Positions 36,961-55,679 of a stretch of 64,000 nucleotides of DNA are shown one piece after another (positions within the stretch are counted from its first letter, which is position 1; each line of letters begins with the position of its first letter). The notes below the pieces were generated by a model, which did no database searches, had not been told where the DNA came from, and was given only the letters and a program-made list of their open reading frames with translations. The stretch is from a virus (taxonomy: Duplodnaviria > Heunggongvirae > Uroviricota > Caudoviricetes). The stretch is from IMG/VR virus record IMGVR_UViG_3300044693_000272; one strand, written 5' to 3'. The position numbers and the translations under genes were made by a program.

Positions 36961-37320
36961 TTAGTGATTCGTATTAACCTTGCCCTTTGCAAGATCGCTA
37001 TAGAAGTGCTTCGTGACATCTTGTACGAGACGCGGACACAGCGTCATTTGCATCGTTGCCGAGAGAATCGGCGTGTATACGTCACCACCATCCGTGCGGC
37101 CACCAATCTTTTCGGCCCACTTTTCCATGACCTTACCCATCTCGCTGAGATAACGCGTCTTGAACTTCAGCTTGCCGTTGCGGCGACCCCAGAAGTTGAC
37201 CAACTTACCGTCGATCTTAGCAATTCCCCAGATTTTATCGTTGCTTGCTGCACCGCCTGCGTTGCCACGTGCGCCTTCGTTGTAGAAGTGACCAAACTTG
37301 ATGATTTCGACGTTTGCCAT
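36961..37320 (-). CDS. WGR-domain protein (about 119 aa)
   Basis: Start trimmed to MANVEIIKFGH; KLVNFWGRRNGKLKFKT plus downstream A...F...K..KG pattern fit the WGR domain. Confidence 0.55.
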   Translation of the reverse strand: MANVEIIKFGHFYNEGARGNAGGAASNDKIWGIAKIDGKLVNFWGRRNGKLKFKTRYLSEMGKVMEKWAEKIGGRTDGGDVYTPILSATMQMTLCPRLVQDVTKHFYSDLAKGKVNTNH

Positions 37321-37541
37321 TTCGATCTCCTGTAAAGTTTGTTGCGTTGTCTTCACTGCTTACCATGTATCACATTCTAGGTTCATCTAAAGATGGCGTC
37401 AAGCAAATTTAAGGAGATTTTTAGATAAACTCGATCACGTCGATAGTTACAGTGCAAGCTGAATTGTGTGCCTCAAAGTGATTTATGTAGCCTAATGAAA
37501 GGTGGTGCAAGCAAAACTCGCACCACCTGGTTGCAAGGTTT

Positions 37542-37835
37542 TTAGTAAGGGCCGCTCAAGTCACCAATATCTTCTAGTTCAGTTGAACTAAGATGCTCGA
37601 TACGATCATTGAAAGCCCACAGGGTGGCGCCGTAACGCACGCCTTCGTTGCTAATAGCAGACAAATACAAAGTTTCATGCCTACCTTGCTGCTGCATTCT
37701 GAAATCGTTTCCGAGCCAGTCAATAAGCAGTTTTCGCACATCTTTAGGGTCGATGCTGCTCACTGTACCCACAAAGTCATGAGCGCCGCCAGGGCCCACT
37801 TGCCCGTCCGAAACCTTAATGAATACTAGCACCAT
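37542..37835 (-). CDS. hypothetical protein (97 aa)
   Basis: AGGGAGTTCGT SD. Confidence 0.5.
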   Translation of the reverse strand: MVLVFIKVSDGQVGPGGAHDFVGTVSSIDPKDVRKLLIDWLGNDFRMQQQGRHETLYLSAISNEGVRYGATLWAFNDRIEHLSSTELEDIGDLSGPY

Positions 37836-37899
37836 ACGAACTCCCTATTCATTTACCATATTCTTATGGTAAATTCAAATGAGCAAGAAGTAAAGCGTT

Positions 37900-38028
37900 T
37901 TCAACGGCCGTAAAATTCATGTTCTCTTGAGGCAGGAAACTCATATTTCATGTTTTTCACCATCAAGGGAATTAGCATAAAAACAACAAAACCGATACCG
38001 AACAGTAACCCAATCAACAAATCGTACA
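37900..38028 (-). CDS. very small hydrophobic protein (42 aa)
   Basis: Not in ORF track; GGGGG SD then ATG; MYDLLIGLLFGIGFVVFMLIPLMV. Confidence 0.3.
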
Positions 38029-38080
38029 TATAAACCCCCTATCATTCTATGTACGATTATTTTAAATATGGATCAAATCT

Positions 38081-38398
38081 TCAGCACCATGTTAGTTTGA
38101 ATATGGCTGCGTCTGCTTCATCTTGAAAGCACCACAGCTCATAAATTGGAGACTTGACTTCCGATGTCAAAAACGCAGCAAACGCACCACGCACATTATT
38201 GCCACACCATTCATGTATGCTCTGAACGTAGTCGGAGCGGCGCTTGCGATGTGTCTCGGAAAACACGACGAATGCTTTTGGCTTGAAGGGAAGGTTCTTG
38301 ATGTCTTTGCAGAAATTTTCCTCTTCGTAGTCACGGCTGCTCCACTGTGTAGGTTTGCAGCCATAAAATTCGTTTAATGTTTCACTAAGCGTCTTCAT
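38081..38398 (-). CDS. C-terminal FKLTWG-motif family member (about 105 aa)
   Basis: Start at internal MKTLSETL; ends ADAAIFKLTWC. Confidence 0.45.
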   Translation of the reverse strand: MKTLSETLNEFYGCKPTQWSSRDYEEENFCKDIKNLPFKPKAFVVFSETHRKRRSDYVQSIHEWCGNNVRGAFAAFLTSEVKSPIYELWCFQDEADAAIFKLTWC

Positions 38399-38777
38399 GA
38401 GAAAGCATGCTGCCACCAAACAGATAATGGTAAAAGGCCGCACCACAATCGAGGTTGACATAGTCTGGGCCTTGCATACCCATTTCGGAATAGCTAATCG
38501 CCGCAGCACCGTCAGCCGGAACATAACATTGAGCAATGAGTGCCCGCCGAAATGTTGCTAACCACGTGTCATCAGTGTAGATGCGGCCGTCGTCAATATC
38601 CCAGGTGTTAGGATCAAAGTAAGCGTTCACCGACGCAAACTTGGACTCGTGATCCACATAAGCTACTTCAAGTCGAACGATGTTGACATCACGTGCAACC
38701 TTGGACCAAAGACCTTTCCCATCGGTCTTGGTGTTCATAGGAAAACCGTGTGGGGGTCGAATAGCTAAATTATTCAT
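38385..38777 (-). CDS. hypothetical protein (130 aa)
   Basis: ORF track. Confidence 0.45.
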   Translation of the reverse strand: MNNLAIRPPHGFPMNTKTDGKGLWSKVARDVNIVRLEVAYVDHESKFASVNAYFDPNTWDIDDGRIYTDDTWLATFRRALIAQCYVPADGAAAISYSEMGMQGPDYVNLDCGAAFYHYLFGGSMLSHEDA

Positions 38778-38887
38778 ATTTGCTTCATGATTACAGCACT
38801 TTCGCAGCCATCATTTCGTCAACATGACTTCATGAATGTCGAAACCGACCACATCAATGCGATCAAAACGGCTGATAGTAGGCTTAT

Positions 38888-39097
38888 TCATTCTATCACA
38901 GTCGCATATTTGCAGAACAGTGATTGAAAGACGAGCTTCTCACCACCTTGACTATCCCGCATTAGAACATGCGGTTTGTCATATGCAGTTCCATTCTCAC
39001 GGTGAGTTCTCACTCCCACGAAAGTGACGCGTTTATATGCGCCATATGAAACGGGAGTACCATCCGGAAGTGCTTTTAGTTGTTCTACAGTGATCAT
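38888..39097 (-). CDS. hypothetical protein (69 aa)
   Basis: ACAGGAGCG SD. Confidence 0.5.
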   Translation of the reverse strand: MITVEQLKALPDGTPVSYGAYKRVTFVGVRTHRENGTAYDKPHVLMRDSQGGEKLVFQSLFCKYATVIE

Positions 39098-39166
39098 TTT
39101 CGCTCCTGTCGAATGCCATACTCATATAGTATATTCATATTAGTACGGCATCAACAGGTAAATGAA

Positions 39167-39379
39167 TCAGTCAAGTACTTCGATTGTTACTCGCACACGC
39201 TTACCAATCAAGTTGTCAAAATCCGGATGTTCTCCTTCTTCTGACCAGCTCTGCACTCGAACGAACATACCTTCCTCTGCTCCTGTACCGTCATCATCTA
39301 TGTCAAGAATCTTTGCACAGCCACCGTCTTCCTCTGAAACGTCTCTTGCGGACACCGTTTGTTCAAATACTTTTTTCAT
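39167..39379 (-). CDS. hypothetical acidic protein (70 aa)
   Basis: AAAGAGGTCAC SD. Confidence 0.5.
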   Translation of the reverse strand: MKKVFEQTVSARDVSEEDGGCAKILDIDDDGTGAEEGMFVRVQSWSEEGEHPDFDNLIGKRVRVTIEVLD

Positions 39380-39410
39380 AGTGACCTCTTTGTTGAAACC
39401 GCTAGTTTAA

Positions 39411-39442
39411 AGCAAAAAGGTACCTGTTTGTAGGTACCTTTT
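39411..39442 (-). terminator. rho-independent terminator
   Basis: aaaggtacct-acaaac-aggtaccttt then TTTGCTTTAAA on the minus strand. Confidence 0.5.
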
Positions 39443-39558
39443 ACACGACTAGTCTGTTTATTACTCAGCTGTAAGCTTTGTTACCAGGATTACAGTGCCA
39501 TATTTTAAGAGCGTGACTTTGCTAGAGCACGTTGTTTCCAGTGTTACTGCGTTACTGC

Positions 39559-39960
39559 TTACGCTTCAACTGCCTTCGCCAGTTCCACTTTGAAGTGGGC
39601 TAGTTTCGCTTCATGATCCTTCACACGGAGGCGCGCATATCCAAGTTCACGTTCTTCATTTGCGATCTTCTCGTTCAAGCCCCAGACTGTCGCAGCTTTG
39701 ATGGGGTCTGCTGCGTCGAGCAAGTTTACCGGAAACACATAGTCGCTCGTGTTTTCGCAGCCACGGACCGACCAACTCGTTTCGATACGCACGTTCTCTC
39801 CGTAAAAATCGATCGATTCGACTGTGTCATGCGCAATGCTGCCCAAGCCAGCCGCTTCTATAATCTTATTAAGTCGGTTCTTGGCTTCGTCAATGTTTGG
39901 GTGTTTGTACATCGAAAGGTCCGACGCGGCTTGCGCAACGAGTTCCCGAAGTGTAGACAT
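39559..39960 (-). CDS. hypothetical protein (133 aa)
   Basis: ACAAGGAGAAC SD; promoter motif upstream. Confidence 0.55.
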   Translation of the reverse strand: MSTLRELVAQAASDLSMYKHPNIDEAKNRLNKIIEAAGLGSIAHDTVESIDFYGENVRIETSWSVRGCENTSDYVFPVNLLDAADPIKAATVWGLNEKIANEERELGYARLRVKDHEAKLAHFKVELAKAVEA

Positions 39961-40067
39961 TTTGTTCTCCTTGTTTGTTTACCATGTTCCTATGGAAAGT
40001 TCATTTGAATATGATTACGACAGAAGAATGAAGAGGCCATAAAAGCCTCTTAAATATTCAAAATTGA

Positions 40068-40307
40068 TTAAAAATCAGCTGGATGGATGACTTGGGTACC
40101 CTTACCATCAGCCTGCACATCTTTTTCACACAGAACAACACTAACCATGTGCTGTTTACTTTTGGGCACTTTGAACAATGCAATGGCTTGCTTCTTTGCA
40201 TCAACTAGACTATCAGCATAGATGTCAGATTGCTTACCATTGTAAAATCCTTTATAACCATGCATTATTTTCTCCTTTTCATTACTATATTCGTATATTA
40301 TGTTCAA
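40068..40307 (-). CDS. hypothetical protein (79 aa)
   Basis: AAAAGGAGAAAAT SD. Confidence 0.5.
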   Translation of the reverse strand: MNIIYEYSNEKEKIMHGYKGFYNGKQSDIYADSLVDAKKQAIALFKVPKSKQHMVSVVLCEKDVQADGKGTQVIHPADF

Positions 40308-40377
40308 ATGGATATAAAATCAAGCATCAAATGAATGATGACCGCTTTTGGGCGGTCATCATGTTGTGTGTTATTGC

Positions 40378-40923
40378 TTACGCTTGCACTTCACGACGTG
40401 CTGCAAGCTGCCATGCGTTGCTTGCGTTCACTAGGATCAGGATTGCAAGGCCGCCAAGGCTCAGTGCTTCATGATGCGCAAAAACAAGCGTACCTTCAAG
40501 CAACACTGTGAAGCCCCATGCCTTGATTTGATGACCGCACCATTTATTTGCCCAGCTTGCCACCGACGGGGCCGAGAACATAAGCGCGGCAGCTACCAAA
40601 ATCCAGAGAAGCGGTTGGGATGCGGCTTCTTGATGAGCAATCACAAAGCTTGCAATCGGGAGAAAACCGCTTGCGATTGCAGCAACAAACTGGCCGATCG
40701 TTCGCTTCTGGGCAGCCGACACCTTGATCGGAGCAGCCGTCGGGAGTGCCCGCGGCTTTGCTGCCTTCTTTGCTACCTTCGCTTCGCCTACTTGCGGCGT
40801 TGTCTTTGCATCCTTCAATGCTTGCGTAGCAGCACGACGAGCACGACTACGAACAGCACTGGGTGACATCGAGAGTTGTTTTTCAGACTTTACGATCTCA
40901 ACCACGTTCGTTGCGTTTGCCAT
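40378..40923 (-). CDS. membrane protein with basic N-terminal region and 3-4 TM helices (about 181 aa)
   Basis: Start trimmed to MANATNVV (AAGGAGTTAACAAC ATG). Confidence 0.5.
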   Translation of the reverse strand: MANATNVVEIVKSEKQLSMSPSAVRSRARRAATQALKDAKTTPQVGEAKVAKKAAKPRALPTAAPIKVSAAQKRTIGQFVAAIASGFLPIASFVIAHQEAASQPLLWILVAAALMFSAPSVASWANKWCGHQIKAWGFTVLLEGTLVFAHHEALSLGGLAILILVNASNAWQLAARREVQA

Positions 40924-40942
40924 GTTGTTAACTCCTTTGTTG

Positions 40943-40990
40943 TTTACCATGTATCAAATTATGCATTCATTTGATCTTGGTTGCAAGCGT
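40943..40990 (-). promoter_or_regulatory. conserved promoter/operator element: -35 TTGCAA, -10 CATAAT variant
   Basis: Consensus-like copy upstream of 40378-40923. Confidence 0.45.
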
Positions 40991-41069
40991 TATATGAACA
41001 TTTTATGATTCAACTTCAAAAGAAATGGCCACCTTGGTGGCCATTTTCACTCTTGCTTATTGCCCTTGT

Positions 41070-41441
41070 TTAGTACGCAAGGACAATATCAAAATGCCGT
41101 TTGTGTTGTTCGACTGACTTCACAATCGCCTTCGGAAACTTGAACACACGCACCGTCCATTCGGTGTCACGAACTTTCGTGCTTTTGGTACGAGACTGAA
41201 GGCCGATACCACCATGACGATTGACAATGGTTTTCTTCTGCGCGAATTTTGCTCGTTTCTTTTCGATGTGATATACGAAGATGTGATCATGGTCTCGGCC
41301 TTCGCTCAGGTATGAACCTTTGTTCCCCATCGTATGGGCGAGAACGCCACGATAAGCGTCGTTATAACTGATCTGATGATTGCGTGTCATGCTTGCAACA
41401 CGAAAATCATTCATCTTTGGCTTACGAGAAATGATAGCCAT
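41070..41441 (-). CDS. hypothetical basic protein (about 124 aa; start MAIISRKP)
   Basis: Trimmed MSISFEHGKQ artefact; ACAAGGAGAATAAAG ATG. Confidence 0.5.
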   Translation of the reverse strand: MAIISRKPKMNDFRVASMTRNHQISYNDAYRGVLAHTMGNKGSYLSEGRDHDHIFVYHIEKKRAKFAQKKTIVNRHGGIGLQSRTKSTKVRDTEWTVRVFKFPKAIVKSVEQHKRHFDIVLAY

Positions 41442-41460
41442 CTTTATTCTCCTTGTTTGT

Positions 41461-41510
41461 TTACCATGTTCAAATGATATGCTCATCTGAACATGATTGC
41501 AAGCACTTTT
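41461..41510 (-). promoter_or_regulatory. conserved promoter/operator element: -35 TTGCAA (41497-41502), -10 TATCAT (41474-41479)
   Basis: Consensus copy. Confidence 0.55.
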
Positions 41511-41697
41511 ATTCTTCAAATCGATCAAGGAACGAATCCAAGTTTTCGATGTCAATTGCTTGTACACTGTAATCGTCACTAATATTTTCGACGTGTTTAC
41601 GAACAGTTTCAAGATCTGCGCACTCTCCATCAATCACAGCAAGCAGGGCTTCACTCGGCACGGCGGAAAAATCAGTCACTACATAAACAGTTGTCAT
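41509..41697 (-). CDS. hypothetical acidic protein (about 63 aa; start MTTVYVV)
   Basis: Trimmed MNLSFEHGKQ artefact. Confidence 0.45.
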   Translation of the reverse strand: MTTVYVVTDFSAVPSEALLAVIDGECADLETVRKHVENISDDYSVQAIDIENLDSFLDRFEE

Positions 41698-41716
41698 CTT
41701 TATTCTCCTTGTTTGT

Positions 41717-41765
41717 TTACCATGTTCAAATGATAAATTCACCTAACCACCTTCGCAAGCACTTT
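41717..41765 (-). promoter_or_regulatory. conserved promoter/operator element: -35 TTGCGA (41753-41758), -10 TATCAT (41730-41735)
   Basis: Consensus copy. Confidence 0.5.
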
Positions 41766-41786
41766 TTGAATGTGGTTATCATTCTT

Positions 41787-42506: not shown

Positions 42507-42640
42507 CTCCTTGTCATTTACCATATATCAAATTATACATTCATTTGGCTACAGTGCAAGCATTATTTGATATGGTTATTCCTTCCTCCATAAACAAAAA
42601 GCCACCTCCACGTGGCTTTTTGTTTATTTGCGTTTTTGCT

Positions 42641-42916: not shown

Positions 42917-42932
42917 TGTTCTCTCCGTTTGT

Positions 42933-43184: not shown

Positions 43185-43275
43185 TTTCAACTCCTTGTGT
43201 TTGTTTACCATGTATCAAATAATACATTCATTTGGTTAAAGTATCAAATGAATAATGATTTTTTCATGAAGTGGA

Positions 43276-43315
43276 AATGATGATGGCCAGGGCAGATGCC
43301 CTGGCCATCATCATT
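43276..43315. terminator. perfect extended palindrome of the ATGATGGCC family after the WGR gene 43324-43875
   Basis: aaatgatgatggccagggc-agat-gccctggccatcatcatt. Confidence 0.5.
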
Positions 43316-43323: not shown

Positions 43324-43875
43324 TTACTCTTGTGTGCTGGAGGGAATAGTGGTCGTTGGGTACGGCCAGCTAAAAGGAGCCGTGTTGGTTGGCGCAGTCT
43401 GAGCCGGTGGCGTTTCGGGAGCCTTTGATTCGGCCTTGGGTTTTCCCTTAGCTTTACCAGCTGCTTTCGGATCCTCAGCCTTCGGCTCCGCAACTTCGCC
43501 ATCAGCTTCGTCATCGACCTTCGCAATGCGGTAGTCGATCTTGCCTTCAGCAAGCGCTGCTTCATACTTTTCGCAAAGCTCTTGCGAGAAGTTGGTCCCA
43601 AGCAGCTCAGCCTGCTTGTCGGCATCGAGATCATCGTGCTTCAGCTTCTTTGCATCAGTGCCATCTAGCTTCTGCTGGTACAGCTTGAGCGCTGCTTCGA
43701 GCTCGCTGATCGGTTCTTGTTTGAACCTAATCGATCCGCCGCGCCGCCCGAAGAACTTGATGACTGCCTCATCAGTGCGCATCAGCCCCCAGAGAGAATC
43801 CTTTTTCGGCTTGTCGTTAGCAAACTTACCCTTGATGAAGGCATGACCAACTTTAAGAATGACCAAGTTACTCAA
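43324..43875 (-). CDS. WGR-domain protein with Lys/Ala/Pro-rich H1-like tail (183 aa)
   Basis: MSNLVILKVGHAFIKGK ... VIKFFGRRGGSIRFKQE ... then AEPKAEDPKAAGKAKGKPKAESK tail. Confidence 0.55.
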   Translation of the reverse strand: MSNLVILKVGHAFIKGKFANDKPKKDSLWGLMRTDEAVIKFFGRRGGSIRFKQEPISELEAALKLYQQKLDGTDAKKLKHDDLDADKQAELLGTNFSQELCEKYEAALAEGKIDYRIAKVDDEADGEVAEPKAEDPKAAGKAKGKPKAESKAPETPPAQTAPTNTAPFSWPYPTTTIPSSTQE

Positions 43876-43941
43876 TTCCGTTCTCCTGTTGTTGTTTACC
43901 GTATGCTTATTGTGTGCTCATCTGAATTTGGTGTCAAGACC

Positions 43942-46831: not shown

Positions 46832-47941
46832 TCATTCACTTGGAGTGACTATCAAACTTTTCTGATTGAACTTTGAATCAACCCAAGAATTGATTCGTTT
46901 ACGTATTGGTGTCTCTACTCGCATATTGAGAATATGTGCTGAGACAATTGATAATGTAATATACAACACAGCAGCAATTACACGTTCAATAGTACCTGTT
47001 GTTATGGCAATAAACGTCGCAAAAGCCATAACTATGGCGGCATGGCTCAAATATAATGAATAAGAAATTCTACCCAAATATTGAGCAAAGCGACTATTGA
47101 GTAAAAGTGTCACTGGTCCGTTATTCATAGTTAGTGTCGCTATGAATAATGCAAACAATAATGGCGCAACACATGCTAAGCCTGGAATGCTATCAGCGAT
47201 TAGAATAAAGAGTAATGTACCGGTAAATATCGCTAATTGTATATTTGGTTTACAAAGACTGATCACAAATCGATGATTGCGATATTCGGCAAGCAGAGCA
47301 CCAATGAAGAAGCCAACTAGACCGCGTCCCCATCCAAAGTAATAGGTTTGTTCAAAACATCCGCCCTTAGTCAAACATGAACTAACAATTATCGACTGCC
47401 ATAAAGCAATCGAATAACCAAAAAGAGCAAATGCGATAAACGCAGCCGTTCTAATTTTTCCATGTAGGGAAATACAGAGTAGTGCGAATATACAGTAGAT
47501 CCAAAATTCAACACTGGCACTCCAACTTACTGCAATACCAATTACATTCGTGATAGCCAAACCTTGAAGAAACGTCGCAACACCTAATAGTTGAATAATG
47601 CTTGGTAATCGATATTCATGAAAGCTTGCGAGATATTGTAAGAAAAAATAAATGAAATTCGCAATCATGAATGCTGGCCACAATCTCCCAATTCGACGCA
47701 ATATAAAAGCACCAAAATCAGAATTATTTCTCAGCTTCGCTTTATATGAATCATATATTACGAAACCACTCAATACGAAGAACAAATCAACAGCCAAATA
47801 ACCGTTCTTTGAAAAAGAAAAGAAACTTGCGGCAGCACGAGAATTCGGTACAGCTTGCAATGACATATAAACATGAAGGAAGACAACAATTAAAGCGGCA
47901 AACCCGCGCAAGCCTTCAAGGCTATGAAGTCGGCCGCCCAT
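46832..47941 (-). CDS. acyltransferase family 3 integral membrane protein (OafA/YrhL-like)
   Basis: LEGLRGFAALIVVFLHV ... FFVLSGFVI plus about 10 TM helices; GAGGAGATGACAT ATG. Confidence 0.65.
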   Translation of the reverse strand: MGGRLHSLEGLRGFAALIVVFLHVYMSLQAVPNSRAAASFFSFSKNGYLAVDLFFVLSGFVIYDSYKAKLRNNSDFGAFILRRIGRLWPAFMIANFIYFFLQYLASFHEYRLPSIIQLLGVATFLQGLAITNVIGIAVSWSASVEFWIYCIFALLCISLHGKIRTAAFIAFALFGYSIALWQSIIVSSCLTKGGCFEQTYYFGWGRGLVGFFIGALLAEYRNHRFVISLCKPNIQLAIFTGTLLFILIADSIPGLACVAPLLFALFIATLTMNNGPVTLLLNSRFAQYLGRISYSLYLSHAAIVMAFATFIAITTGTIERVIAAVLYITLSIVSAHILNMRVETPIRKRINSWVDSKFNQKSLIVTPSE

Positions 47942-48411: not shown

Positions 48412-48527
48412 TTCCTCTCCTTGTTGTCTTCACATTCATATTGTTCGTTCGTATGAACTTGAAGTCAAGCAGCCATTCAGCAAAAGAGCGGGGGATCGCT
48501 CACCCCGCCTTTTGCGCCAATCATGGC

Positions 48528-48923
48528 TTATGCTTCAGCTTCAGCAGCCTTGCGGGCGCCCTTCGTCGAACGCGTGTTCACCTTGCCTTCACGCACAGCC
48601 GCGTAGTAGCCCTTGCTTACATCTTCGACGATCGACGGGCACGTTTCCTTGATCCCCTTCGCGCTCGACACGTCGACGTACTTGATGCCCTTCACGTCCT
48701 TGCCGGCCAGCTTTTCTTCGAACAGTGCCAGCGCTTCGTCGAGTGCGGCCTTCTTTTCCGTCTTGAAGCGCAGCTTGCCACCACGACGGCCGTAGAACTT
48801 GACGAGTGCGTTGCCGACGTATGCGATACCCCAGACGCTGTCCTTCGACGGCTTGCCACCCTTTTCGCCGCGTTCGCCTTCGATCAGTGCGTGACCCAGC
48901 TTGATGATTTCGACCTTTGCCAT
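48528..48923 (-). CDS. WGR-domain protein (131 aa)
   Basis: MAKVEIIKLGH ... LVKFYGRRGGKLRFKTEKKAALDEALALFEEKLAGKDVKGIKY reproduces the WGR core and C-terminal KGY. Confidence 0.6.
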   Translation of the reverse strand: MAKVEIIKLGHALIEGERGEKGGKPSKDSVWGIAYVGNALVKFYGRRGGKLRFKTEKKAALDEALALFEEKLAGKDVKGIKYVDVSSAKGIKETCPSIVEDVSKGYYAAVREGKVNTRSTKGARKAAEAEA

Positions 48924-49073
48924 GTGTTTCTCCTTGAAAAGTTACTACGTTGCGTTGTCTGTCAGTTACTGCTCACCACATGTCAAATGATAGGATCACT
49001 TAAATGTGGCGTCAACAGTTTTTCTAACTTTTTGAACGTGAGTAGCTAGGAATCAGAACTGGTGAAGGTATGG

Positions 49074-49334
49074 TTAATTGTACGTAAAGTCGAACAGGAG
49101 AGCATCTCGCACCTCTTCAAAAACCACAACTAACATATTGTCAGTAGGAATGTGATGAGTCCAAAACTTACCTACACACTGCTCAACTAGATTGGCTCTG
49201 AGCTCTTCAATAGTCTGATTGCCCATCAAGACCATAAAATTGCATTCATCTAACGACAAGTTACCAATTGTTGTGGCCATATAGGCTGCACGTTTTGCTA
49301 TTTTGTCTGTTGTATTTTTGCAACTGTATATCAT
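49074..49334 (-). CDS. C-terminal-motif family member (86 aa)
   Basis: Ends VRDALLFDFTYN. Confidence 0.45.
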   Translation of the reverse strand: MIYSCKNTTDKIAKRAAYMATTIGNLSLDECNFMVLMGNQTIEELRANLVEQCVGKFWTHHIPTDNMLVVVFEEVRDALLFDFTYN

Positions 49335-49335
49335 T

Positions 49336-49635
49336 TTATTGGCCGAATGTTAGATAGAACGCCAAAGCATCGTTGTATTTTTCATACATAGTGACAACGA
49401 CCATACCGAACTGTCGCCAGTTCAATTTGATTTTTTGTTCCTTGTGCCAAAGCCTTACAGCCTGATCTCGCTCAGACTTAACGAGACCGTCAGACATGAC
49501 TATATACCCTGACGGTAGTTTGTTAACTTCTTCGAAGTCCGCCCTTAATGACTGGCGAATCACATATTCGACAGCACTGTGCAATTCATCATCTTTCATG
49601 GCGAACCATCTTTCCATTTCACGAATAATAGCCAT
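49336..49635 (-). CDS. C-terminal-motif family member (99 aa)
   Basis: Ends NDALAFYLTFGQ. Confidence 0.5.
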   Translation of the reverse strand: MAIIREMERWFAMKDDELHSAVEYVIRQSLRADFEEVNKLPSGYIVMSDGLVKSERDQAVRLWHKEQKIKLNWRQFGMVVVTMYEKYNDALAFYLTFGQ

Positions 49636-49638
49636 CCC

Positions 49639-49929
49639 TTAACCCCAAGTCAGGAAATAGTTCAGCGCGTCTTGGTAGTTCGAGAATAAACCAAGTACGG
49701 TTGTTTTGAGCAGTATTATTGAATAATCATACTCAATATTGAGCTTTGCCCAACGGCGAGATGCCATTATATTACTATTGGTAATGGCAATGTCTACAGC
49801 ATATAGATACATATGGAATTCAATGGCTTCGCGATCATCAACTATGCGTTGACGAAACAGTTCATGTGAGCCACTTATATGCTCCTCACTGCCATTCTTG
49901 ATCCAATCTTGAACTGTTCGAAGTGGCAT
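49639..49929 (-). CDS. C-terminal-motif family member (about 96 aa)
   Basis: Start at internal MPLRTV; ends QDALNYFLTWG. Confidence 0.45.
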   Translation of the reverse strand: MPLRTVQDWIKNGSEEHISGSHELFRQRIVDDREAIEFHMYLYAVDIAITNSNIMASRRWAKLNIEYDYSIILLKTTVLGLFSNYQDALNYFLTWG

Positions 49930-49930
49930 A

Positions 49931-50203
49931 TCAGCACCACGTAAGGTAGAATGCCAAAGCATTTTTGTAGTCAGTGAAGAAACACATCATCACATTTAGC
50001 TTGCCATCGAGCGTGAAACAACCGTCATATTCATTTTTGACGGTATCGATTATATGTGTAAAGCTGTTTGGCAAATCAAATGTAACAACATATGGATGGT
50101 TCTTCTTTGAAGAGCGATAGTGTTCTATTAATAGATTGGCACGCTTGCCCTGTTCGGGCCCTTCAATATCCAACCATTCTTTTGTTGTTTGTAATTTAGC
50201 CAT
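49931..50203 (-). CDS. C-terminal-motif family member (90 aa)
   Basis: Ends KNALAFYLTWC. Confidence 0.5.
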   Translation of the reverse strand: MAKLQTTKEWLDIEGPEQGKRANLLIEHYRSSKKNHPYVVTFDLPNSFTHIIDTVKNEYDGCFTLDGKLNVMMCFFTDYKNALAFYLTWC

Positions 50204-50213
50204 GCTGACACCA

Positions 50214-50537
50214 TCACACTTTGTCGCCGTGTGTCATGTAAAACTTGATTGCGTCAATTTCGCGTTCGAAAAACACGGCCATAACGCCGCTACCGTTCTT
50301 CGTACGCATTATTGGAAGTTGGTCTCCCTCGCACTCGGATTCAAGCCATTCGCATAGCTCGATCCATGTCCAACGACGTTTGGAATCGAACATGATGATC
50401 ATTGCACACGCGATGTGAAATTCAGCTGATTCGATACCATTCTTGAACCAGCTACCGGCCTCGTGTAAGTCACCGTATAGCTTATCGAGCTTACTCAGCT
50501 CGTTGAAGACGTGTGGTTTGAATATTTGTGCATTCAT
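50214..50537 (-). CDS. C-terminal-motif family member (107 aa)
   Basis: Ends IDAIKFYMTHGDKV. Confidence 0.5.
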   Translation of the reverse strand: MNAQIFKPHVFNELSKLDKLYGDLHEAGSWFKNGIESAEFHIACAMIIMFDSKRRWTWIELCEWLESECEGDQLPIMRTKNGSGVMAVFFEREIDAIKFYMTHGDKV

Positions 50538-50731
50538 TTTGCTGGATATGGGCTAAACCATAACCCCTCATGTTGTTTGTTTAACTTACCAGCCCTGTAC
50601 AATGCTCCCTGTTCGCTATATCCGATGAATGCTTCCTCCGAATTTGGGCTGAGCCATTTTTCACCTGCCTTACCTGTGTAATACAGAGTTTCGCCCTTCT
50701 GATTCTGGACCATAATGCCATGCGTGCTCAT
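50534..50731 (-). CDS. hypothetical protein (65 aa)
   Basis: ATGA-coupled to downstream gene. Confidence 0.45.
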   Translation of the reverse strand: MSTHGIMVQNQKGETLYYTGKAGEKWLSPNSEEAFIGYSEQGALYRAGKLNKQHEGLWFSPYPAK

Positions 50732-50790
50732 GTGATTCTCCGACTTTCGTAGTACAAGAACTCACATGATACGTTCATATGAACCGTAAG

Positions 50791-51066
50791 TCAACCCCAA
50801 GCCAGCAACCAGGCAACCGCATCAGTTTCATGCTGAAAATAAATTGCTGGTGGTATGAAATCTACTGCTGGGTTGAAACCGATCTTCCCCTTCACATTTT
50901 CAGTGCGCCAATCAGGATCCACTTCATAGAAGTGATCGTGTTTATCAGATAGTAATACTGAGCCAGGAAGGAAACGAACATTTCCCATTGTTCGAGACAT
51001 CCAGTTTCGAACTCGATCTTCGCCATATCTGGCTTGGAAGGCTGCGAATGAGAGTAACTGCATCAA
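50791..51066 (-). CDS. C-terminal-motif family member (91 aa)
   Basis: Ends TDAVAWLLAWG. Confidence 0.45.
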   Translation of the reverse strand: MMQLLSFAAFQARYGEDRVRNWMSRTMGNVRFLPGSVLLSDKHDHFYEVDPDWRTENVKGKIGFNPAVDFIPPAIYFQHETDAVAWLLAWG

Positions 51067-51305
51067 TCACCTTTCTTACCAAGTCGTATGACAAAGCGAT
51101 CACCAAACTTTTCAATCTCGAAAGTTTCTCCCTGAAAATAACTTATGTAGTCGGCGGGAACTTCAAGCTTCATTTCGGTTTCATAGACCGAGGTGTACGG
51201 TTGATAACCGTACCGATCATTTTCGGCTGTTGTAATTACTTCGATCTGGGTGTCTTCAGGAAATTGATCCAACCAGCGTTGCAATTCGACTCGAGTAGTC
51301 ATCAT
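51063..51305 (-). CDS. hypothetical protein (80 aa)
   Basis: ATGA-coupled. Confidence 0.45.
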   Translation of the reverse strand: MMTTRVELQRWLDQFPEDTQIEVITTAENDRYGYQPYTSVYETEMKLEVPADYISYFQGETFEIEKFGDRFVIRLGKKGD

Positions 51306-51362
51306 AATCTCCTGAAGTAATCATGCTCATATGGTACGTTCATATGAGCATGATATCAAGAG

Positions 51363-51641
51363 CTATGCGACCAAATGAACCGTAAGATAATCTATAAAGC
51401 TTTTGAAATACACTTGATATGGTCTTCTATCATTAGATCGCTCACAGATCACATCGCCGCGCAATCCTCGATATAAAAGGTGAAAAGCATGGTTATCGAA
51501 CCTAAAACCTTCGCTGAAAGTCAAACGAACAATGACTTCAGGTTTGAAACCATGCTCTAGTTCAAAGTCATGAATCTTCTGTTGACGACCCAGAAAGGCA
51601 AGTGTGGGATCGAGATATTCTTCAAGAGTCCAAGCAATCAT
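51363..51641 (-). CDS. divergent C-terminal-motif family member (92 aa)
   Basis: Ends FIDYLTVHLVA. Confidence 0.4.
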   Translation of the reverse strand: MIAWTLEEYLDPTLAFLGRQQKIHDFELEHGFKPEVIVRLTFSEGFRFDNHAFHLLYRGLRGDVICERSNDRRPYQVYFKSFIDYLTVHLVA

Positions 51642-52150
51642 ACATTCGCCCGATCTGCTAACGCCTGAAGAACAAATGGGTGAATGTATTTTGCCACTTT
51701 TTCTTCCCAGTTGTTAATTCCGACAAACCCTCGCACAGCTGATGAGCTGATACGCGTGATATCTTCGGGAGGAATTACAAAGACATGGTCGATGCTATTT
51801 TCAATATCTGCGTTGAAACCCTGAATATCTTTCTCGTAACCAAAGTCAACAGCATTGCGAATGCCACGCATGATGGTGGTAACACCTAGATGCTTCGCCA
51901 CGCTGACCGTGAATTCATTTTCAATCACTACAAACTTCAACTTTTCGAACAGCTCAGATGTGAGTGAGTCAGCCAACACTCGCCGTGCCAGTTCCTCACG
52001 TTCGATCGAATTGAACATTCCCTTCTTTGCTGGATTGTAAGCAATCGCAAAGTAGACTTCATCGAATGTGCGACAAGCACGCTCGACCATCCATTCATGC
52101 CCTCGTGTGATTGGATCGAACGACCCAGTAACCATACCGATCGTATACAT
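51638..52150 (-). CDS. CoaD-like nucleotidyltransferase (phosphopantetheine adenylyltransferase family)
   Basis: GSFDPITRGHEWMV matches the (H/T)xGH motif GTFDPITNGH; RGIRNAVDFGYE matches RGLRAVADFEYE; start chosen at the ATG that TAATG-overlaps the upstream stop. Confidence 0.6.
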   Translation of the reverse strand: MYTIGMVTGSFDPITRGHEWMVERACRTFDEVYFAIAYNPAKKGMFNSIEREELARRVLADSLTSELFEKLKFVVIENEFTVSVAKHLGVTTIMRGIRNAVDFGYEKDIQGFNADIENSIDHVFVIPPEDITRISSSAVRGFVGINNWEEKVAKYIHPFVLQALADRANV

Positions 52151-53385
52151 TAGACCCAACGCTCCCATTTCTTGATAAGTGTGTCCAAGTTTGCACGTGC
52201 ATTATCTTCGAGATGTGCAAAGTGCGATGATTGAAAAACTTTTGGTCGACGCAAAAATGTCTTCAATACAGAAACCCGGCCTCTAGCAAATGTTCGAATT
52301 TCATACTCATTTTTGAACTCCTGATATACTGCGTCATCAAATGCTTCAGCCTCCTCGGGAGTTCCACCCAACATCATCAAGTCCACATCAAGAAACAATT
52401 CACAATCGTTTTTCAACTTAGGATTGGCTTTCAAGAAATGCGAAGAAGCCGAATGCGTTTTCGTACTCATGATGTATTCAGCAGCAACTGCGAGTGATGG
52501 GATACCATCTTCAATTTCAAATCGCAATGCTTCTGGCATAATTGCTTTGAATTGATCAATCATGAACTTAACGCTTTGAGATTCATTATGTGGATACAGA
52601 GTCTTATACGTACTGTATACCACATCATGATAGATAATCGCAATACCGGCAATGCTAGGATAGTTGAATTTGTCAAGATTCGACATAAACCATCGATACA
52701 TAGCAAGTGGGTGATCTGCATTATGCCAGTGCCGATCAAAACCGTGATATTGTTTCATCGCATTGTCGAACAATTCACCAGCTTCCTTTTCTTTTTTGTA
52801 AAAAGCGCTTTGGAAGAATAAACGTAGATCTTTTCGAGCAATGTTACCAGCAATGCGTTTAGCTTCAGTTTCAAGCTCTTCAAGCGAAACATTAGTGTCA
52901 ATTGTTTCATCCGACATTGCCGACTTCACAATAGTACTGAGTTGCGCACCACGAATCTTTGCGATTTTTTCGGCAGTGAAGCCATCACGTGCAATCACAC
53001 GTTTTTCTTGCGTCTCATCGTCGCACATACACGTGATGATGAAATCGTATTTGTCATTATTGCACATTTCAAACAACAGAGGAAATTCAACTACGATGTG
53101 ATTCTGACTGTCGATTTTTATCATTCGCAACCGCATGTGCGTTTTCACCAAATCTTCAAGCCATTTACGTTGCTCTGGGTCGTTGAATACGATATCCGAT
53201 ATTTGCTTGCGATCATCCGTTCCGAATTGTTCCTTCAGTTCTTTAGCAAATTCGGTGTTCTTATAAAGCTCGTGAACCATCTCATCGATGCTTGCTTGAG
53301 TGTAATTTGGTGTAAGATGTTTCACCAATAGTTTCGTGAATGTGGATTTTCCACAGCCAATGTTACCGGTAATCGCGATCCGCAT
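52150..53385 (-). CDS. two-domain protein: N-terminal CoaE-like P-loop kinase and C-terminal HD-domain phosphohydrolase
   Basis: MRIAITGNIGCGKSTF is a Walker A as in dephospho-CoA kinase (LTGGIGSGKST); C-terminal RHWHNADH ... IIYHDVVYS ... DVDLMMLG carries the HD-domain His/Asp pattern. Confidence 0.55.
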   Translation of the reverse strand: MRIAITGNIGCGKSTFTKLLVKHLTPNYTQASIDEMVHELYKNTEFAKELKEQFGTDDRKQISDIVFNDPEQRKWLEDLVKTHMRLRMIKIDSQNHIVVEFPLLFEMCNNDKYDFIITCMCDDETQEKRVIARDGFTAEKIAKIRGAQLSTIVKSAMSDETIDTNVSLEELETEAKRIAGNIARKDLRLFFQSAFYKKEKEAGELFDNAMKQYHGFDRHWHNADHPLAMYRWFMSNLDKFNYPSIAGIAIIYHDVVYSTYKTLYPHNESQSVKFMIDQFKAIMPEALRFEIEDGIPSLAVAAEYIMSTKTHSASSHFLKANPKLKNDCELFLDVDLMMLGGTPEEAEAFDDAVYQEFKNEYEIRTFARGRVSVLKTFLRRPKVFQSSHFAHLEDNARANLDTLIKKWERWV

Positions 53386-53483
53386 TGATGCTCCTTTATT
53401 CGTTTTTGATGATCAAGCTACCATAAGCCATTCATTTATTCATTGTATGACAAATCATACCAAATGTAAAGCCGCCAAATGGC

Positions 53484-53510
53484 AGATGGCCCCATATGGG
53501 GCCATCTTTT
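53484..53510. terminator. hairpin of the GATGGCC family after the ligase-like gene
   Basis: agatggcccc-atat-ggggccatct then TTTTAC. Confidence 0.45.
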
Positions 53511-53515
53511 ACAGC

Positions 53516-54085
53516 TTAGTACGGAAAGTCAGCTTTCTTGATTTTCACAAGGCGACCATCTTCGTGATGCCAAACAATGCCTTCGATAGGCTTGTCTCGC
53601 AACCATTCTTTGATGCCATCAAACGTGCGCGGGCAATCTTCTAAGATATCCTTACCGTGAGGAACAAGAATGTGTTCGGTCAAACCTTCAGGATTAGCAC
53701 CGTGACGTGTCCCAATTTTGGGACCACACGCTTCATATGTGCCATCAGGGATTCCACCGGCAAACTTGTTCTTCTGCGCCCATTCGACAGCTTCTCGAAT
53801 GTACTTCGATTCCGGGCCTTCAGCGGGAACCCAACCAGGCCAGTGCCCGCTTTTCGGATCAGGGTTAGGTTGGGCAGGAATGAAGTCAACGGGAGGTGTT
53901 CTCCCAGTCTTAGCGTCGTAACGCTTAAAGACTTGACCATCCTTTACCAACACAGCCACGCCATCCCATTTACGAGTAGCGTAACCTTCACCCTGAACAA
54001 CCCATTCAGCACCCGGAGTAACTTCGTCACGAACCTTACGATCCCCTTCGTAGTTACGTTGAAACAACGACATGATTTTCTTCAT
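53516..54085 (-). CDS. minimal covalent nucleotidyltransferase (ATP-dependent RNA/DNA ligase-like)
   Basis: Start trimmed to MKKIMSLFQ (AAGGAGCAGTTC ATG); ATRKWDGVAVLVKDG is motif I (KxDG), EGIVWHHEDGRLVKIKK resembles motifs IV/V. Confidence 0.55.
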   Translation of the reverse strand: MKKIMSLFQRNYEGDRKVRDEVTPGAEWVVQGEGYATRKWDGVAVLVKDGQVFKRYDAKTGRTPPVDFIPAQPNPDPKSGHWPGWVPAEGPESKYIREAVEWAQKNKFAGGIPDGTYEACGPKIGTRHGANPEGLTEHILVPHGKDILEDCPRTFDGIKEWLRDKPIEGIVWHHEDGRLVKIKKADFPY

Positions 54086-54136
54086 GAACTGCTCCTTAAA
54101 AGTGATGAGATAGTTTTCGAGTCCCATCAACGCCAC

Positions 54137-54200
54137 CTTAAGGTTTACTGCAACTACTAAGCCATATTGTATTGCAAGTACACTATGGCGTCAAACACTT
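54137..54200 (-). promoter_or_regulatory. sigma70-like promoter variant: -35 TTGACG, 17 nt, -10 TACAAT, upstream of the ligase-like gene
   Basis: Reverse complement of 54140-54185 reads TTGACGccatagtgtacttgcaaTACAAT. Confidence 0.4.
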
Positions 54201-54206
54201 TTGCGC

Positions 54207-54524
54207 TTATTCTCCTGCCTTCTTAACAGACCAGAGGTTCTTCGAATTTCCCCTTACCCACATACGGTTACCATCTGTGCAATCGATCACCACTTCATAC
54301 GCGTAATCATGCGTATGGTGAGCCCTGACAAAAGCAACCACCCCTTCTTTGACGACCTTATTGGAAGCCTTATATCGCACTGTGCAGCCAGCAGAATAAC
54401 CGGAAAGCTCGGCGTGTCCTTGGGCGTAAGCTTCACGCAGTTCACCGCGCCGTTGCTCCAGATCTCGGATCTGTTGGTTAACTGCATTCAGTTCATCATC
54501 AATTGCGCCAAGTTCTTGCCGGTT
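54207..54524 (-). CDS. hypothetical protein (about 105 aa; start MNRQELG)
   Basis: Promoter-motif artefact trimmed; probable coiled coil. Confidence 0.5.
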   Translation of the reverse strand, partial: NRQELGAIDDELNAVNQQIRDLEQRRGELREAYAQGHAELSGYSAGCTVRYKASNKVVKEGVVAFVRAHHTHDYAYEVVIDCTDGNRMWVRGNSKNLWSVKKAGE

Positions 54525-54546
54525 CATACTAGACTCCGTGTTTGTT

Positions 54547-54598
54547 TTACCATGTTCAGATGGTACATTCACCTGAACATGGTTACAAGCACTTTTTA
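54547..54598 (-). promoter_or_regulatory. conserved promoter/operator element: -35 TTGTAA (54583-54588), -10 TACCAT (54560-54565)
   Basis: 10-bp inverted repeat CCATGTTCAG ... CTGAACATGG brackets the -10 hexamer. Confidence 0.5.
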
Positions 54599-55066
54599 GC
54601 ACTTGACCTCGAATGATGCACCGTACTGCACAACCACAAACGTGACACGAACAGAAGTGCGCGTTTCTGCCTCCTTCTCCGTTTCCGCATCGCCGATGAA
54701 GTCGATAGCAACGTTCACACCAATTCCCGCGAGACGTTTGATTGCCGAGAAATTGATGTCGAAATCATCGAAGCCATGCACTTGCGATTGTGGCACGATG
54801 TATTGGCGCATACGCAGCAGAAGTTCGTCGATTTCTTCTTTGCTGTAGAGCTTTCCGAACGCCTTTTCGGAATCCAGGAAAACATGGTTGAACATCGAAC
54901 AAAAAGGAGCGTCAGGCAAGACTTCCTTGTATGCTTGGCAAAGCTGGCGAATGAGCTCGTCGTTCTCGGACAAATAGCTGAGCACCGTGCAGAGATTATC
55001 GAAAGTCTCGATACCCAGTGCGGCTTCGAACTGATCTTTGGTTGCGTTGATGTCGGCGATACGCAT
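54596..55066 (-). CDS. hypothetical protein (about 156 aa; start MRIADINA)
   Basis: CAGGAGCAAACAA ATG. Confidence 0.5.
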   Translation of the reverse strand: MRIADINATKDQFEAALGIETFDNLCTVLSYLSENDELIRQLCQAYKEVLPDAPFCSMFNHVFLDSEKAFGKLYSKEEIDELLLRMRQYIVPQSQVHGFDDFDINFSAIKRLAGIGVNVAIDFIGDAETEKEAETRTSVRVTFVVVQYGASFEVKC

Positions 55067-55181
55067 TTGTTTGCTCCTGTTGTTAACCATAATCATATGG
55101 TAAGTTCAAATGAACAAAACATCAACACCAGAAATGACGATGGCTAGGGTAAAACCTAGCCATTGTATTACGCGTTACTGC

Positions 55182-55679
55182 TTACGCAGCAGCCTTATCG
55201 GCCTTTGCCGCCTTCTTGGCTGCCTTTTCGGCTGCCGCAGCGGCAGCCGCCACCGAAGCTTGCGTCGGGAACGCGAACACCTTCTTCGGGTTCGGTGCCT
55301 TGTACTTCGGAGCTTGCGGCTTCGTCGAACGCGTGTTCAGCTTGCCGTTGCCCATCGCCTTGTAGAACATCTTGCCGAGGTTTGCTTCAAAATCGGCACC
55401 GAGCGTTTCGACCTGAGCCGCAGCATCGAGATCCTTATACGCAAAACCCTTGTCCTTGCCCGTCAGCTTTTTCGCGTAAAATGCGAGTACGCTTTCGAGT
55501 GCATCTTTCTTGTATGTCTTGAAACGCAGCATGCCACCACGGCGGCCACCGAACGTCACGAGGTTGCCTTGTACCTTTGCCACACCGAACACGCTGTCCT
55601 TCGACGGAGCACCACCGTTATCACCACGCTTGCCAGCGATCAGTGCATGACCAACACGCAGAATTTCGACCTTTGCCAT
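55182..55679 (-). CDS. WGR-domain protein with Ala/Lys-rich tail (165 aa)
   Basis: MAKVEILRVGH ... LVTFGGRRGGMLRFKTYKKDALESVLAFYAKKLTGKDKGFAY; tail AAAAAAEKAAKKAAKADKAAA; AGAGGAGATTACAA ATG. Confidence 0.6.
   Translation of the reverse strand: MAKVEILRVGHALIAGKRGDNGGAPSKDSVFGVAKVQGNLVTFGGRRGGMLRFKTYKKDALESVLAFYAKKLTGKDKGFAYKDLDAAAQVETLGADFEANLGKMFYKAMGNGKLNTRSTKPQAPKYKAPNPKKVFAFPTQASVAAAAAAAEKAAKKAAKADKAAA

What the first reader, a model, noticed from the sequence alone, without database searches (positions are those of the whole stretch)
36961..55679. Four WGR-domain proteins, three with histone H1-like tails
Four paralogs (36961-37320, 43324-43875, 48528-48923, 55182-55679) start M-[AS]-[KN]-V-E-I-[IL]-K-[LVF]-G-H. 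They contain [FWY]-G-R-R-[GN]-G-x-L-[KR]-F-K-T followed by A-L-[DE]...F...K-L...K...KG-[FIY], which matches the WGR domain of PARP1-3 and MolR/YehF (central W-G-R-x-G and C-terminal KGY). The 43324 copy continues into a Lys/Ala/Pro-rich low-complexity tail reminiscent of histone H1/AlgP, and the 48528 and 55182 copies end in shorter A/K-rich tails. WGR is a nucleic-acid-break sensing module. Four stand-alone copies with polycationic tails in a phage, alongside a PARP-like catalytic domain encoded separately at 27023-27700, looks like a split, phage-encoded PARP-type nucleic-acid sensing and ADP-ribosylation system or a phage chromatin protein set.
Basis: partly seen in the sequence, partly recalled or inferred. 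Interest (0 to 1): 0.85.

Follow-up and report, generated by a model that had tools for sequence, protein, structure and literature searches.

The report
Divergent WGR-fold proteins, huge phage
A roughly 520-kb phage carries four old paralogs of a small basic protein whose core is a very divergent WGR domain (the DNA-break-binding module of PARP enzymes); they are most likely abundant non-enzymatic nucleic-acid-binding proteins, and nothing links them to a PARP-like enzyme.

The parts
36961..37320 (-). c1: 119-aa WGR-like protein with no tail (pI 9.75). It keeps the W of W-G-R (FWGRRNG). Ortholog of Sinorhizobium phage Phosso XYS97513.1 (60% identity over 100% of its length).
43324..43875 (-). 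c2: 183-aa WGR-like protein with a TTG start and FFGRRGG motif. It is the most divergent, long-branch copy (whole-protein pI 6.2). The core is residues 1-116.
43327..43527 (-). c2 low-complexity tail: 67 residues, P/E/A/K-rich, net acidic (pI 4.85), ending in ...APFSWPYPTTTIPSSTQE.
48528..48923 (-). c3: 131-aa WGR-like protein (FYGRRGG, pI 9.6) with the highest GC3 of 97 ORFs in the window. WGR-like core is about residues 1-75 (48699-48923), the two-helix extension about residues 76-118, and the tail is 13 residues.
55182..55679 (-). c4: 165-aa WGR-like protein. The W position is G (FGGRRGG). pI 10.1. The AF2 model has pLDDT 91.
55185..55328 (-). c4 basic A/K-rich tail: 48 residues, pI 10.2. 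It has a KKVFAFPTQAS linker motif followed by an A/K stretch predicted as one long helix (residues 140-164).
37374..37402 (-). Promoter of c1: TTGACG-N17-TAGAAT, a member of the abundant minus-strand promoter class.
43909..43937 (-). Promoter of c2: TTGACA-N17-CACAAT.
48987..49015 (-). Promoter of c3: TTGACG-N17-TATCAT, with the inverted repeat GCCACAT/ATGTGGT flanking the -10 box.
55750..55778 (-). Promoter of c4: TTGACT-N17-CAGAAT.
36905..36920 (-). Terminator-like hairpin directly downstream of the c1 stop codon.
48486..48501 (-). Terminator-like hairpin plus T-run directly downstream of the c3 stop codon.
55140..55163 (-). Terminator-like hairpin (9-bp stem) directly downstream of the c4 stop codon.
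27023..27700 (-). This 225-aa protein has an N-terminal LFHGT..LPSIL.DGL.P motif shared with the NAD-binding lobe of Tpt1/KptA and with DarT. All hits are sub-threshold and there is no PARP catalytic-domain hit.

Best explanation
The four genes encode a divergent, huge-phage-specific subfamily of stand-alone WGR-fold proteins. Each has an N-terminal WGR-like core of about 75 residues (four antiparallel strands carrying DK[IV]WG and [W/F/Y]GRR, then a helix ending K..G..Y). This is followed by a family-specific two-helix extension of about 45 residues (Y82, P-x-L, GK[VL]N) and, in some members, a variable low-complexity tail. They have no catalytic domain. Most likely they are abundant, early-expressed, non-enzymatic nucleic-acid-binding proteins. 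On this reading the conserved basic and aromatic hairpin (x-G-R-R, F-K) contacts DNA or RNA backbone or termini as the WGR of PARP1-3 does. The K/A-rich tails, where present, add non-specific polyanion affinity. The old paralogs have diverged in target preference, giving an architectural, end/nick-binding or nucleoid-type role on the >500-kb genome or on host DNA. Shown here: paralogy, fold, WGR homology, restriction to huge phages, multi-copy conservation, single-gene transcription units, basic cores, codon bias. Inferred: high abundance, nucleic-acid binding, architectural or end-binding role.
Confidence: 0.6

Rival explanations
1. Sequence-specific transcription regulators (MolR-like WGR transcription factors, as Iyer et al. 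proposed for jumbo-phage WGR proteins). The paralogs would bind operator-like repeats in the phage's own abundant promoter class and time early gene expression.
For: Iyer et al. 2021 list WGR among the DNA-binding domains of jumbo-phage-specific transcription factors. The window has a highly stereotyped promoter class (20 strict matches on the minus strand, 0 on the plus strand; 32 repeat copies). It carries a GTTCA-N2-TGAAC palindrome in the spacer and a third TGAAC after the -10 box. The arms flanking the -10 box co-vary modestly (mean longest inverted repeat 5.1 vs 4.28±0.26 with shuffled partners). Several old paralogs could match operator variants.
Against: No link between these proteins and the repeats was tested or is testable here. 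Regulators are usually expressed at low levels, whereas these genes show the strongest codon bias among their neighbours. Low-complexity K/A/P tails are more typical of non-specific binders. Specific DNA recognition by a WGR domain has never been demonstrated, to my knowledge.
Confidence: 0.15
2. Protein-binding modules or anti-defence decoys. On this reading the WGR-like fold is a scaffold that binds a host or phage protein (for example a host WGR-containing defence or repair factor, or a nuclease), with tail motifs such as VFAFPT or VPAGYG acting as docking peptides, and nucleic acid is not the ligand.
Against: The invariant residues (G-R-R, F-K, K71) are basic and sit in the canonical WGR nucleic-acid-contact hairpin. 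Three of the four cores are strongly basic. There is no significant match to any known anti-defence family.
Confidence: 0.12
3. One reading: a split PARP-type system in which the stand-alone WGR proteins sense nucleic-acid breaks and activate or target the separately encoded ADP-ribosyltransferase at 27023-27700.
For: The proteins are WGR-like (see above). ORF 27023-27700 has an ART-superfamily N-terminal motif (LFHGT..LPSIL.DGL.P), with weak hits to DarT (E=0.016), Tpt1 (Pfam E=0.052; NCBIfam E=8.8e-4) and PHROG RNA 2'-phosphotransferase (E=0.006).
Against: There is no hit to the PARP catalytic or PARP regulatory domains. All ART matches are sub-threshold and limited to about 28 residues. The ORF is 9.3 kb from c1 and 28 kb from c4, with many intervening genes. 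Each WGR-like gene has its own promoter. The ±10-kb neighbourhoods of family members in two other huge phages show no ART-family domain. No GenBank phage, including Phosso with at least two family members, has a detectable homolog of the ORF. In context the ORF fits an RNA-repair theme better (RLIG1-like ligase at 53516-54136 and two tRNAs).
Confidence: 0.05
4. No homology: a small alpha+beta fold that resembles WGR by convergence, with a chance 'GRR' motif.
Confidence: 0.07

Closest known systems
Bacterial MolR/YehF-type WGR domain (Pfam PF05406, COG3831; solved example 2ra8_A residues 3-71 from Bacteroides fragilis)
   Different: Sequence identity is about 19-28% and scores are below Pfam's cutoff. 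The motif is x-G-R-R-G-G instead of W-G-K/R-V/I-G-T-x-G-Q. The phage proteins are stand-alone rather than the N-terminal module of a large multidomain protein. They carry an extra conserved two-helix C-terminal extension and, in the close clade, a conserved RGEKGGAPSKDS loop insertion.
WGR domain of eukaryotic PARP1, PARP2 and PARP3
   Different: There is no fused or adjacent PARP regulatory or catalytic domain and no zinc fingers. The DNA-stacking Trp is kept only in c1 and in distant relatives. No allosteric partner is evident.
Stand-alone WGR proteins already annotated in jumbo phages (Agrobacterium phage Atu_ph07 A0A2L0UZX9; QAY00573.1 cited by Iyer et al. 2021 as a MolR-like transcription factor)
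   Same: Small, stand-alone WGR-fold proteins encoded by very large phages. The Atu_ph07 protein is the best structural match in BFVD (E=1.3e-5).
   Different: Those proteins are recognised by standard annotation, whereas this family is not. tblastn with c1, c3, c4 and the distant member P0068 finds only Phosso among 50,697 phage records. This family has the C-terminal extension and tails and is kept as 2-4 paralogs per genome.
AlgP / histone H1-like K/A/P-repeat tails of bacterial nucleoid-associated proteins
   Same: c4's tail and the tails of relatives such as P0023 (KAEAAPKVKADKPAAKPKAEAKVKAAPKAKAKAKAEPKAK) are basic A/K/P low-complexity sequences of the same compositional type.
   Different: The tails are short, not conserved in sequence, absent from c1, trivial in c3 and net acidic in c2, so the tail is not a defining feature of the family.
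Tpt1/KptA RNA 2'-phosphotransferase and DarT (for ORF 27023-27700 only)
   Same: They share the N-terminal [LF]-[FY]-H-G-T..LPSIL..GL.P motif that opens the NAD-binding ART lobe.
   Different: All matches are below threshold. The ORF lacks the N-terminal RNA-binding lobe of Tpt1, and the rest of the protein matches nothing named (PHROG 13493, unknown function, E=9.5e-6).

Membership tests
WGR domain (Pfam PF05406) | Score at or above Pfam's curated gathering threshold (22 bits) against the WGR HMM | tested here: not met
   c3 scores 16.2 bits (E=0.011) and c1, c2 and c4 give no hit. The best of about 70 family members scanned is P0068 at 21.3 bits, E=3e-4. The positive control YehF scores 61 bits.
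WGR domain (Pfam PF05406) | WGR fold: antiparallel beta-sheet packed by one helix, superposable on solved WGR domains | tested here: met
WGR domain (Pfam PF05406) | Signature motifs in order: aromatic K-F-W-type strand, central W-G-R, C-terminal K-x-G-Y after the helix | tested here: met
   The family consensus is DK[IV]WG ... F-W-G-R-R ... L-F-K ... K71 ... G74 ... Y82. G45 and R46 are invariant. W is present in c1 and most distant members, and is F, Y and G in c2, c3 and c4. hhalign aligns these motifs to authentic WGR in register at P=4.6e-5, with a clean shuffled null.
WGR domain (Pfam PF05406) | Binding to nucleic acid (DNA breaks / 5' termini in PARPs) | not testable with these tools
   This needs EMSA or anisotropy. 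The only support here is indirect: basic cores and conserved R46, R47 and K54.
PARP-type (WGR + regulatory + catalytic) ADP-ribosylation system | A PARP catalytic domain (PF00644, H-Y-E) in the same protein or locus | tested here: not met
   Against Pfam, ORF 27023-27700 hits only DarT (15.4 bits, cutoff 22.5) and Tpt1 (14 bits, cutoff 26), and no PARP family. NCBIfam, PHROGs, PADLOC and PDB agree, matching the N-terminal ~28 residues only.
PARP-type (WGR + regulatory + catalytic) ADP-ribosylation system | Physical or genetic coupling of WGR to the catalytic module (fusion, operon or conserved neighbourhood) | tested here: not met
   The separation is 9.3-28 kb. Every WGR-like gene has its own promoter, and c1, c3 and c4 have terminator-like hairpins. 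There is no ART-family domain within ±10 kb of family members in L003 or L005. No homolog of the ORF exists in Phosso or any GenBank phage.
Histone H1 / AlgP-like polycationic tail proteins | A long, strongly basic K/A/P-rich low-complexity tail | tested here: inconclusive
   Met by c4 (48 residues, pI 10.2) and by some relatives such as P0023. Not met by c2 (net acidic, pI 4.85), c3 (13 residues) or c1 (none).
MolR-like WGR transcription factors (sensu Iyer et al. 2021) | Sequence-specific operator binding and transcriptional regulation | not testable with these tools
   Candidate operators exist (TGAAC palindromes in the promoter class), but no link to these proteins can be computed.

The most novel reading that the evidence does not exclude
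Huge phages use a dedicated set of WGR-fold proteins as their own abundant 'chromatin' or DNA-end/nick-coating proteins. This would be a new class of nucleoid-associated protein built on the PARP break-sensing module, with old paralogs specialised for different nucleic-acid structures and K/A-rich tails playing an H1-like condensing role.
Probability: 0.2. Interest if true: 0.7.

Novelty: new variant of a known kind. Interest (0 to 1): 0.42.

Why it matters
WGR is known almost entirely as the DNA-break-sensing, allosteric module of eukaryotic PARPs. Its bacterial and viral stand-alone forms have no demonstrated function. This family shows that the fold has been kept, expanded to 2-4 old paralogs and apparently tuned for high expression in phages with 0.1-0.5 Mb genomes, with no enzymatic partner. 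That suggests the WGR module has an autonomous nucleic-acid-binding role. Current domain libraries miss the family. A cultured phage, Sinorhizobium phage Phosso, carries an ortholog with 60% identity to c1, so the function can be tested directly. The result also removes a tempting but unsupported 'phage PARP system' annotation.

Tried and rejected
1. Megablast of 13 kb of the region against 50,697 phage records found nothing. tblastn with the CoaE-HD neighbour gave only distant dephospho-CoA kinase hits, so the phage cannot be placed next to a cultured one beyond Phosso sharing c1.
2. Profiles of the family (A2, A4) against PDB sequences gave no WGR or PARP hit and only noise.
3. PHROGs, NCBIfam and PADLOC gave nothing significant for the four proteins.
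4. The first hhalign, against a narrow E. coli-dominated WGR alignment, was weak (P=0.042). It became significant only after Bacteroidales and Parachryseolinea WGR domains were added.
5. The afdb50 fold library was unavailable.
The single-protein scan for the ART-like ORF in IMG/VR found no relative, but that method detects only close relatives, so the result is inconclusive for the sister 524-kb phage.
7. Literature searches for 2RA8+WGR and for Phosso returned nothing. Two 'WGR + jumbo phage' hits were false positives for 'wGRR'.
9. I considered that the high GC of the four genes marks recent horizontal transfer. I rejected this as the main explanation because the GC3 excess recurs for orthologs in three other phages.
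Full report
OBSERVATION. The four ORFs exist at exactly the stated coordinates, but all are on the minus strand. They are c1 36961-37320 (119 aa), c2 43324-43875 (183 aa, TTG start), c3 48528-48923 (131 aa) and c4 55182-55679 (165 aa). For c1, the family alignment and an AGGAG box 7 nt upstream support the ATG at 37320 over the longer GTG ORF. They are true paralogs, with 25-49% identity over about 118 aligned residues and 18 invariant columns, including G45-R46-R47, F53-K54 and K71. c3 retrieves c4 at E=1.9e-28 from 5.8 billion sequences. An HMM of the family finds exactly four copies in the 64-kb window.

SOURCE AND DISTRIBUTION. c3 and c4 occur verbatim on a 523,572-bp JGI metagenomic contig, and relatives sit on contigs of 523,837 and 458,071 bp. 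In IMG/VR the family is found only on contigs of 87-524 kb, usually with at least two copies each. An exhaustive HMMER profile search of 1.84 billion cluster representatives returns just 54 clusters. Among 50,697 GenBank phages only the 469-kb Sinorhizobium phage Phosso has it. Phosso carries a c1 ortholog (60% identity, full length, annotated hypothetical) and a second, distant member. Syntenic loci from two other huge phages each hold three copies within 20 kb. A neighbour-joining tree puts c1, c3 and c4 in separate clades, each with orthologs in other phages, while c2 is a long-branch copy. The multi-copy state is therefore old and maintained.

IS IT WGR? By curated profile, no. Pfam WGR (PF05406, cutoff 22 bits) gives 16.2 bits for c3 and nothing for c1, c2 or c4, and the best of about 70 relatives scanned reaches 21.3 bits (E=3e-4). 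WGR is nonetheless the only family that recurs, always over the same segment (profile positions ~29-76). PADLOC's WGR_XIII model weakly hits the same segment, and JGI named one member 'predicted DNA-binding WGR domain protein'.

By profile-profile comparison, yes. The family was compared with 12 authentic bacterial WGR domains (Escherichia, Klebsiella, Bacteroidales, Parachryseolinea, 2ra8). This gave P=4.6e-5 for the distant subset (61 columns, probability 68%) and P=9.3e-4 for all 61 members. The motifs align in register: DKIWG to KSxKFW, FWGRR to SWGKVG, and K..G.Y to EKTKKGY. Column-shuffled WGR profiles score 10.0±2.2 (max 19.1 of 60) against 29.8 observed, and the reversed profile gives P=0.17. 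As calibration, an authentic bacterial WGR profile detects PARP3's WGR only at E=0.004 and misses PARP1 and PARP2, so weak sequence signals are normal between true WGR branches. I put WGR homology at about 0.9. The family is a divergent branch with its own conserved two-helix C-terminal extension (Y82, P-x-L, GK[VL]N). The close clade also has a conserved RGEKGGAPSKDS loop.

TAILS. Only c4 has a basic A/K-rich tail (48 residues, pI 10.2). AF2 predicts residues 140-164 as one helix, preceded by a less confident linker (pLDDT ~74) that holds KKVFAFPTQAS. c2's 67-residue tail is P/E/A/K-rich but net acidic (pI 4.85), c3's tail is 13 residues and c1 has none. Some relatives have true KAAP/KPAA AlgP-like tails, for example P0023. 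A short [VF]F[AV]FPT.AS motif recurs in otherwise unrelated tails. The tail is therefore a variable accessory, not a family feature.

EXPRESSION SIGNALS. Each gene has its own copy of a stereotyped sigma70-type promoter (TTGAC-N17-TAnnAT...CATGGTAAAC) and an AGGAG RBS. c1, c3 and c4 are followed directly by terminator-like hairpins, and the next genes have their own promoters, so these are single-gene units. Their GC3 is 0.59-0.74 against 0.45±0.10 for 97 ORFs in the window. c3 ranks first and all four are in the top ten. The same excess appears for family members in Phosso and in two other huge phages (ranks 2-5 of ~36 for six of the seven genes; the seventh ranks 15 of 36). This argues for family-wide codon selection, which is consistent with high expression, rather than one recent transfer. 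The cores of c1, c3 and c4 are basic (pI 9.6-9.95).

THE 'SPLIT PARP' IDEA. ORF 27023-27700 (225 aa) begins LFHGTTSRHLPSILADGLTPRN, the motif that opens the NAD-binding lobe of Tpt1/KptA and of DarT. All matches are sub-threshold and cover only about 28 residues: Pfam DarT 15.4 bits (cutoff 22.5), Pfam Tpt1 14 bits (cutoff 26), NCBIfam Tpt1 E=8.8e-4, PDB Tpt1 E=0.36, PHROG RNA 2'-phosphotransferase E=0.006. No PARP catalytic or regulatory family is hit. The ORF is 9.3 kb from c1 and 28 kb from c4, in separate transcription units. The ±10-kb neighbourhoods of family members in two other huge phages show no ART-family domain. No GenBank phage, including Phosso with at least two family members, has a detectable homolog. 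The ORF may be an ART-fold enzyme, and in context it fits an RNA-repair theme (RLIG1-like ligase at 53516-54136 and two tRNAs). Nothing ties it to the WGR-like genes.

MECHANISM. The most likely reading (0.6) is that these are non-enzymatic, abundant, early nucleic-acid-binding proteins. In PARP1 the W of W-G-R stacks on the 5'-terminal ribose of broken DNA (PMC6135609). Here G-R-R and the following F-K strand are invariant, and the aromatic is kept in c1 and in most distant members. Basic cores and K/A tails fit non-specific polyanion binding, and the old paralogs suggest different substrates. Shown: fold, homology, distribution, gene organisation, composition. Inferred: abundance, ligand, role.

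The rivals are as follows. First, MolR-like transcription factors acting on the TGAAC-palindrome promoter class (0.15; Iyer et al. 2021, PMC7824862). Second, protein-binding or anti-defence decoys (0.12). Third, the split-PARP system (0.05). Fourth, fold convergence without homology (0.07).

NOVELTY AND VERDICT. WGR is a known domain. Stand-alone WGR proteins in jumbo phages have been noted once in passing (PMC7824862) and are annotated in Atu_ph07. This family is a divergent branch that curated libraries miss. It has a specific C-terminal extension, a conserved multi-paralog organisation and signs of high expression. I found no functional study of any stand-alone phage WGR protein. I rate it a new variant of a known kind with moderate interest (0.42). 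The WGR reading is supported, the PARP-system reading is not, and the 'phage chromatin' reading remains open and can be tested in Phosso.

Noticed in passing
window, minus strand, e.g. 2866-2918, 18333-18385, 31210-31262, 41457-41509, 54543-54595 (32 copies; list): A highly stereotyped promoter class: TTGAC-n-CCATGTTCA(A/T)(A/G)TGAAC-n-TATCAT-TTGAACATGGTAAACAA, followed by AGGAG. The strict TTGACN-N16/17-TANNNT pattern has 20 matches on the minus strand and 0 on the plus strand. It contains a GTTCA-N2-TGAAC palindrome in the spacer and a third TGAAC after the -10 box. The arms flanking the -10 box co-vary modestly (5.1 vs 4.28±0.26 with shuffled partners). This looks like an operator-like element for an unidentified regulator.
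   Followed up: partly
window 35292-35570, 35941-36294, 36284-36649, 38081-38557, 49074-50552 (five tandem ORFs), 50791-51066, 56166-56820 (two ORFs), all minus strand: Twelve small ORFs (about 90-160 aa) share a C-terminal motif...F...DA..F.LTWG/C. This is a large paralog family of unknown function interleaved with the WGR-like genes.
   Followed up: partly
window 52150-53385 and 51638-52168 (minus strand): A 411-aa protein begins with a dephospho-CoA kinase (CoaE) P-loop and has a long C-terminal extension. The next gene is a PPAT-type nucleotidyltransferase (GSFDPITRGH). The pair is conserved in the sister 524-kb phage, where Pfam assigns CoaE and CTP_transf_like. These appear to be phage-encoded late CoA-biosynthesis steps.
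   Followed up: no
window 53516-54136 (-), 27023-27700 (-), 20502-20694 (-): An RLIG1-like RNA ligase (Pfam E=1.4e-10), a Tpt1/DarT-like ART-motif ORF, and tRNA-Pro(TGG) and tRNA-Val(TAC) lie in the same region. Relatives also encode SmpB nearby. Together they hint at an RNA-repair or translation-maintenance theme.
   Followed up: partly
window 3660-4559 (-); L003 1366-1731: An arginase/agmatinase-family enzyme is encoded in the window (Pfam E=2e-56), and an AdoMet decarboxylase is encoded in the sister phage locus. This points to possible phage-encoded polyamine metabolism.
   Followed up: no
window 26035-26865 (-) and 40378-40950 (-): Other proteins in the region also carry long A/K/P/E low-complexity stretches, e.g. 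...AKADKLPKPDKLPKAAKADKPKAERKGK... in the 276-aa protein. The 190-aa protein combines such a stretch with predicted membrane segments. These tails are therefore a general habit of this phage and are not specific to the WGR-like family.
   Followed up: no
window 28600-28971 (-) and 30100-31239 (-): Two further ORFs share the unusually high GC3 (0.73 and 0.66) of the WGR-like genes. The first is a small, very basic protein ending ...KRPRIAARRKKVKTYKTKK. They may belong to the same highly expressed class.
   Followed up: no
window 59507-60271 (-) and 46832-47941 (-): A radical SAM protein (Pfam E=7.5e-8) and a 369-aa multi-pass membrane protein that looks like an acyltransferase (by eye only) are further accessory genes in the region.
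   Followed up: no
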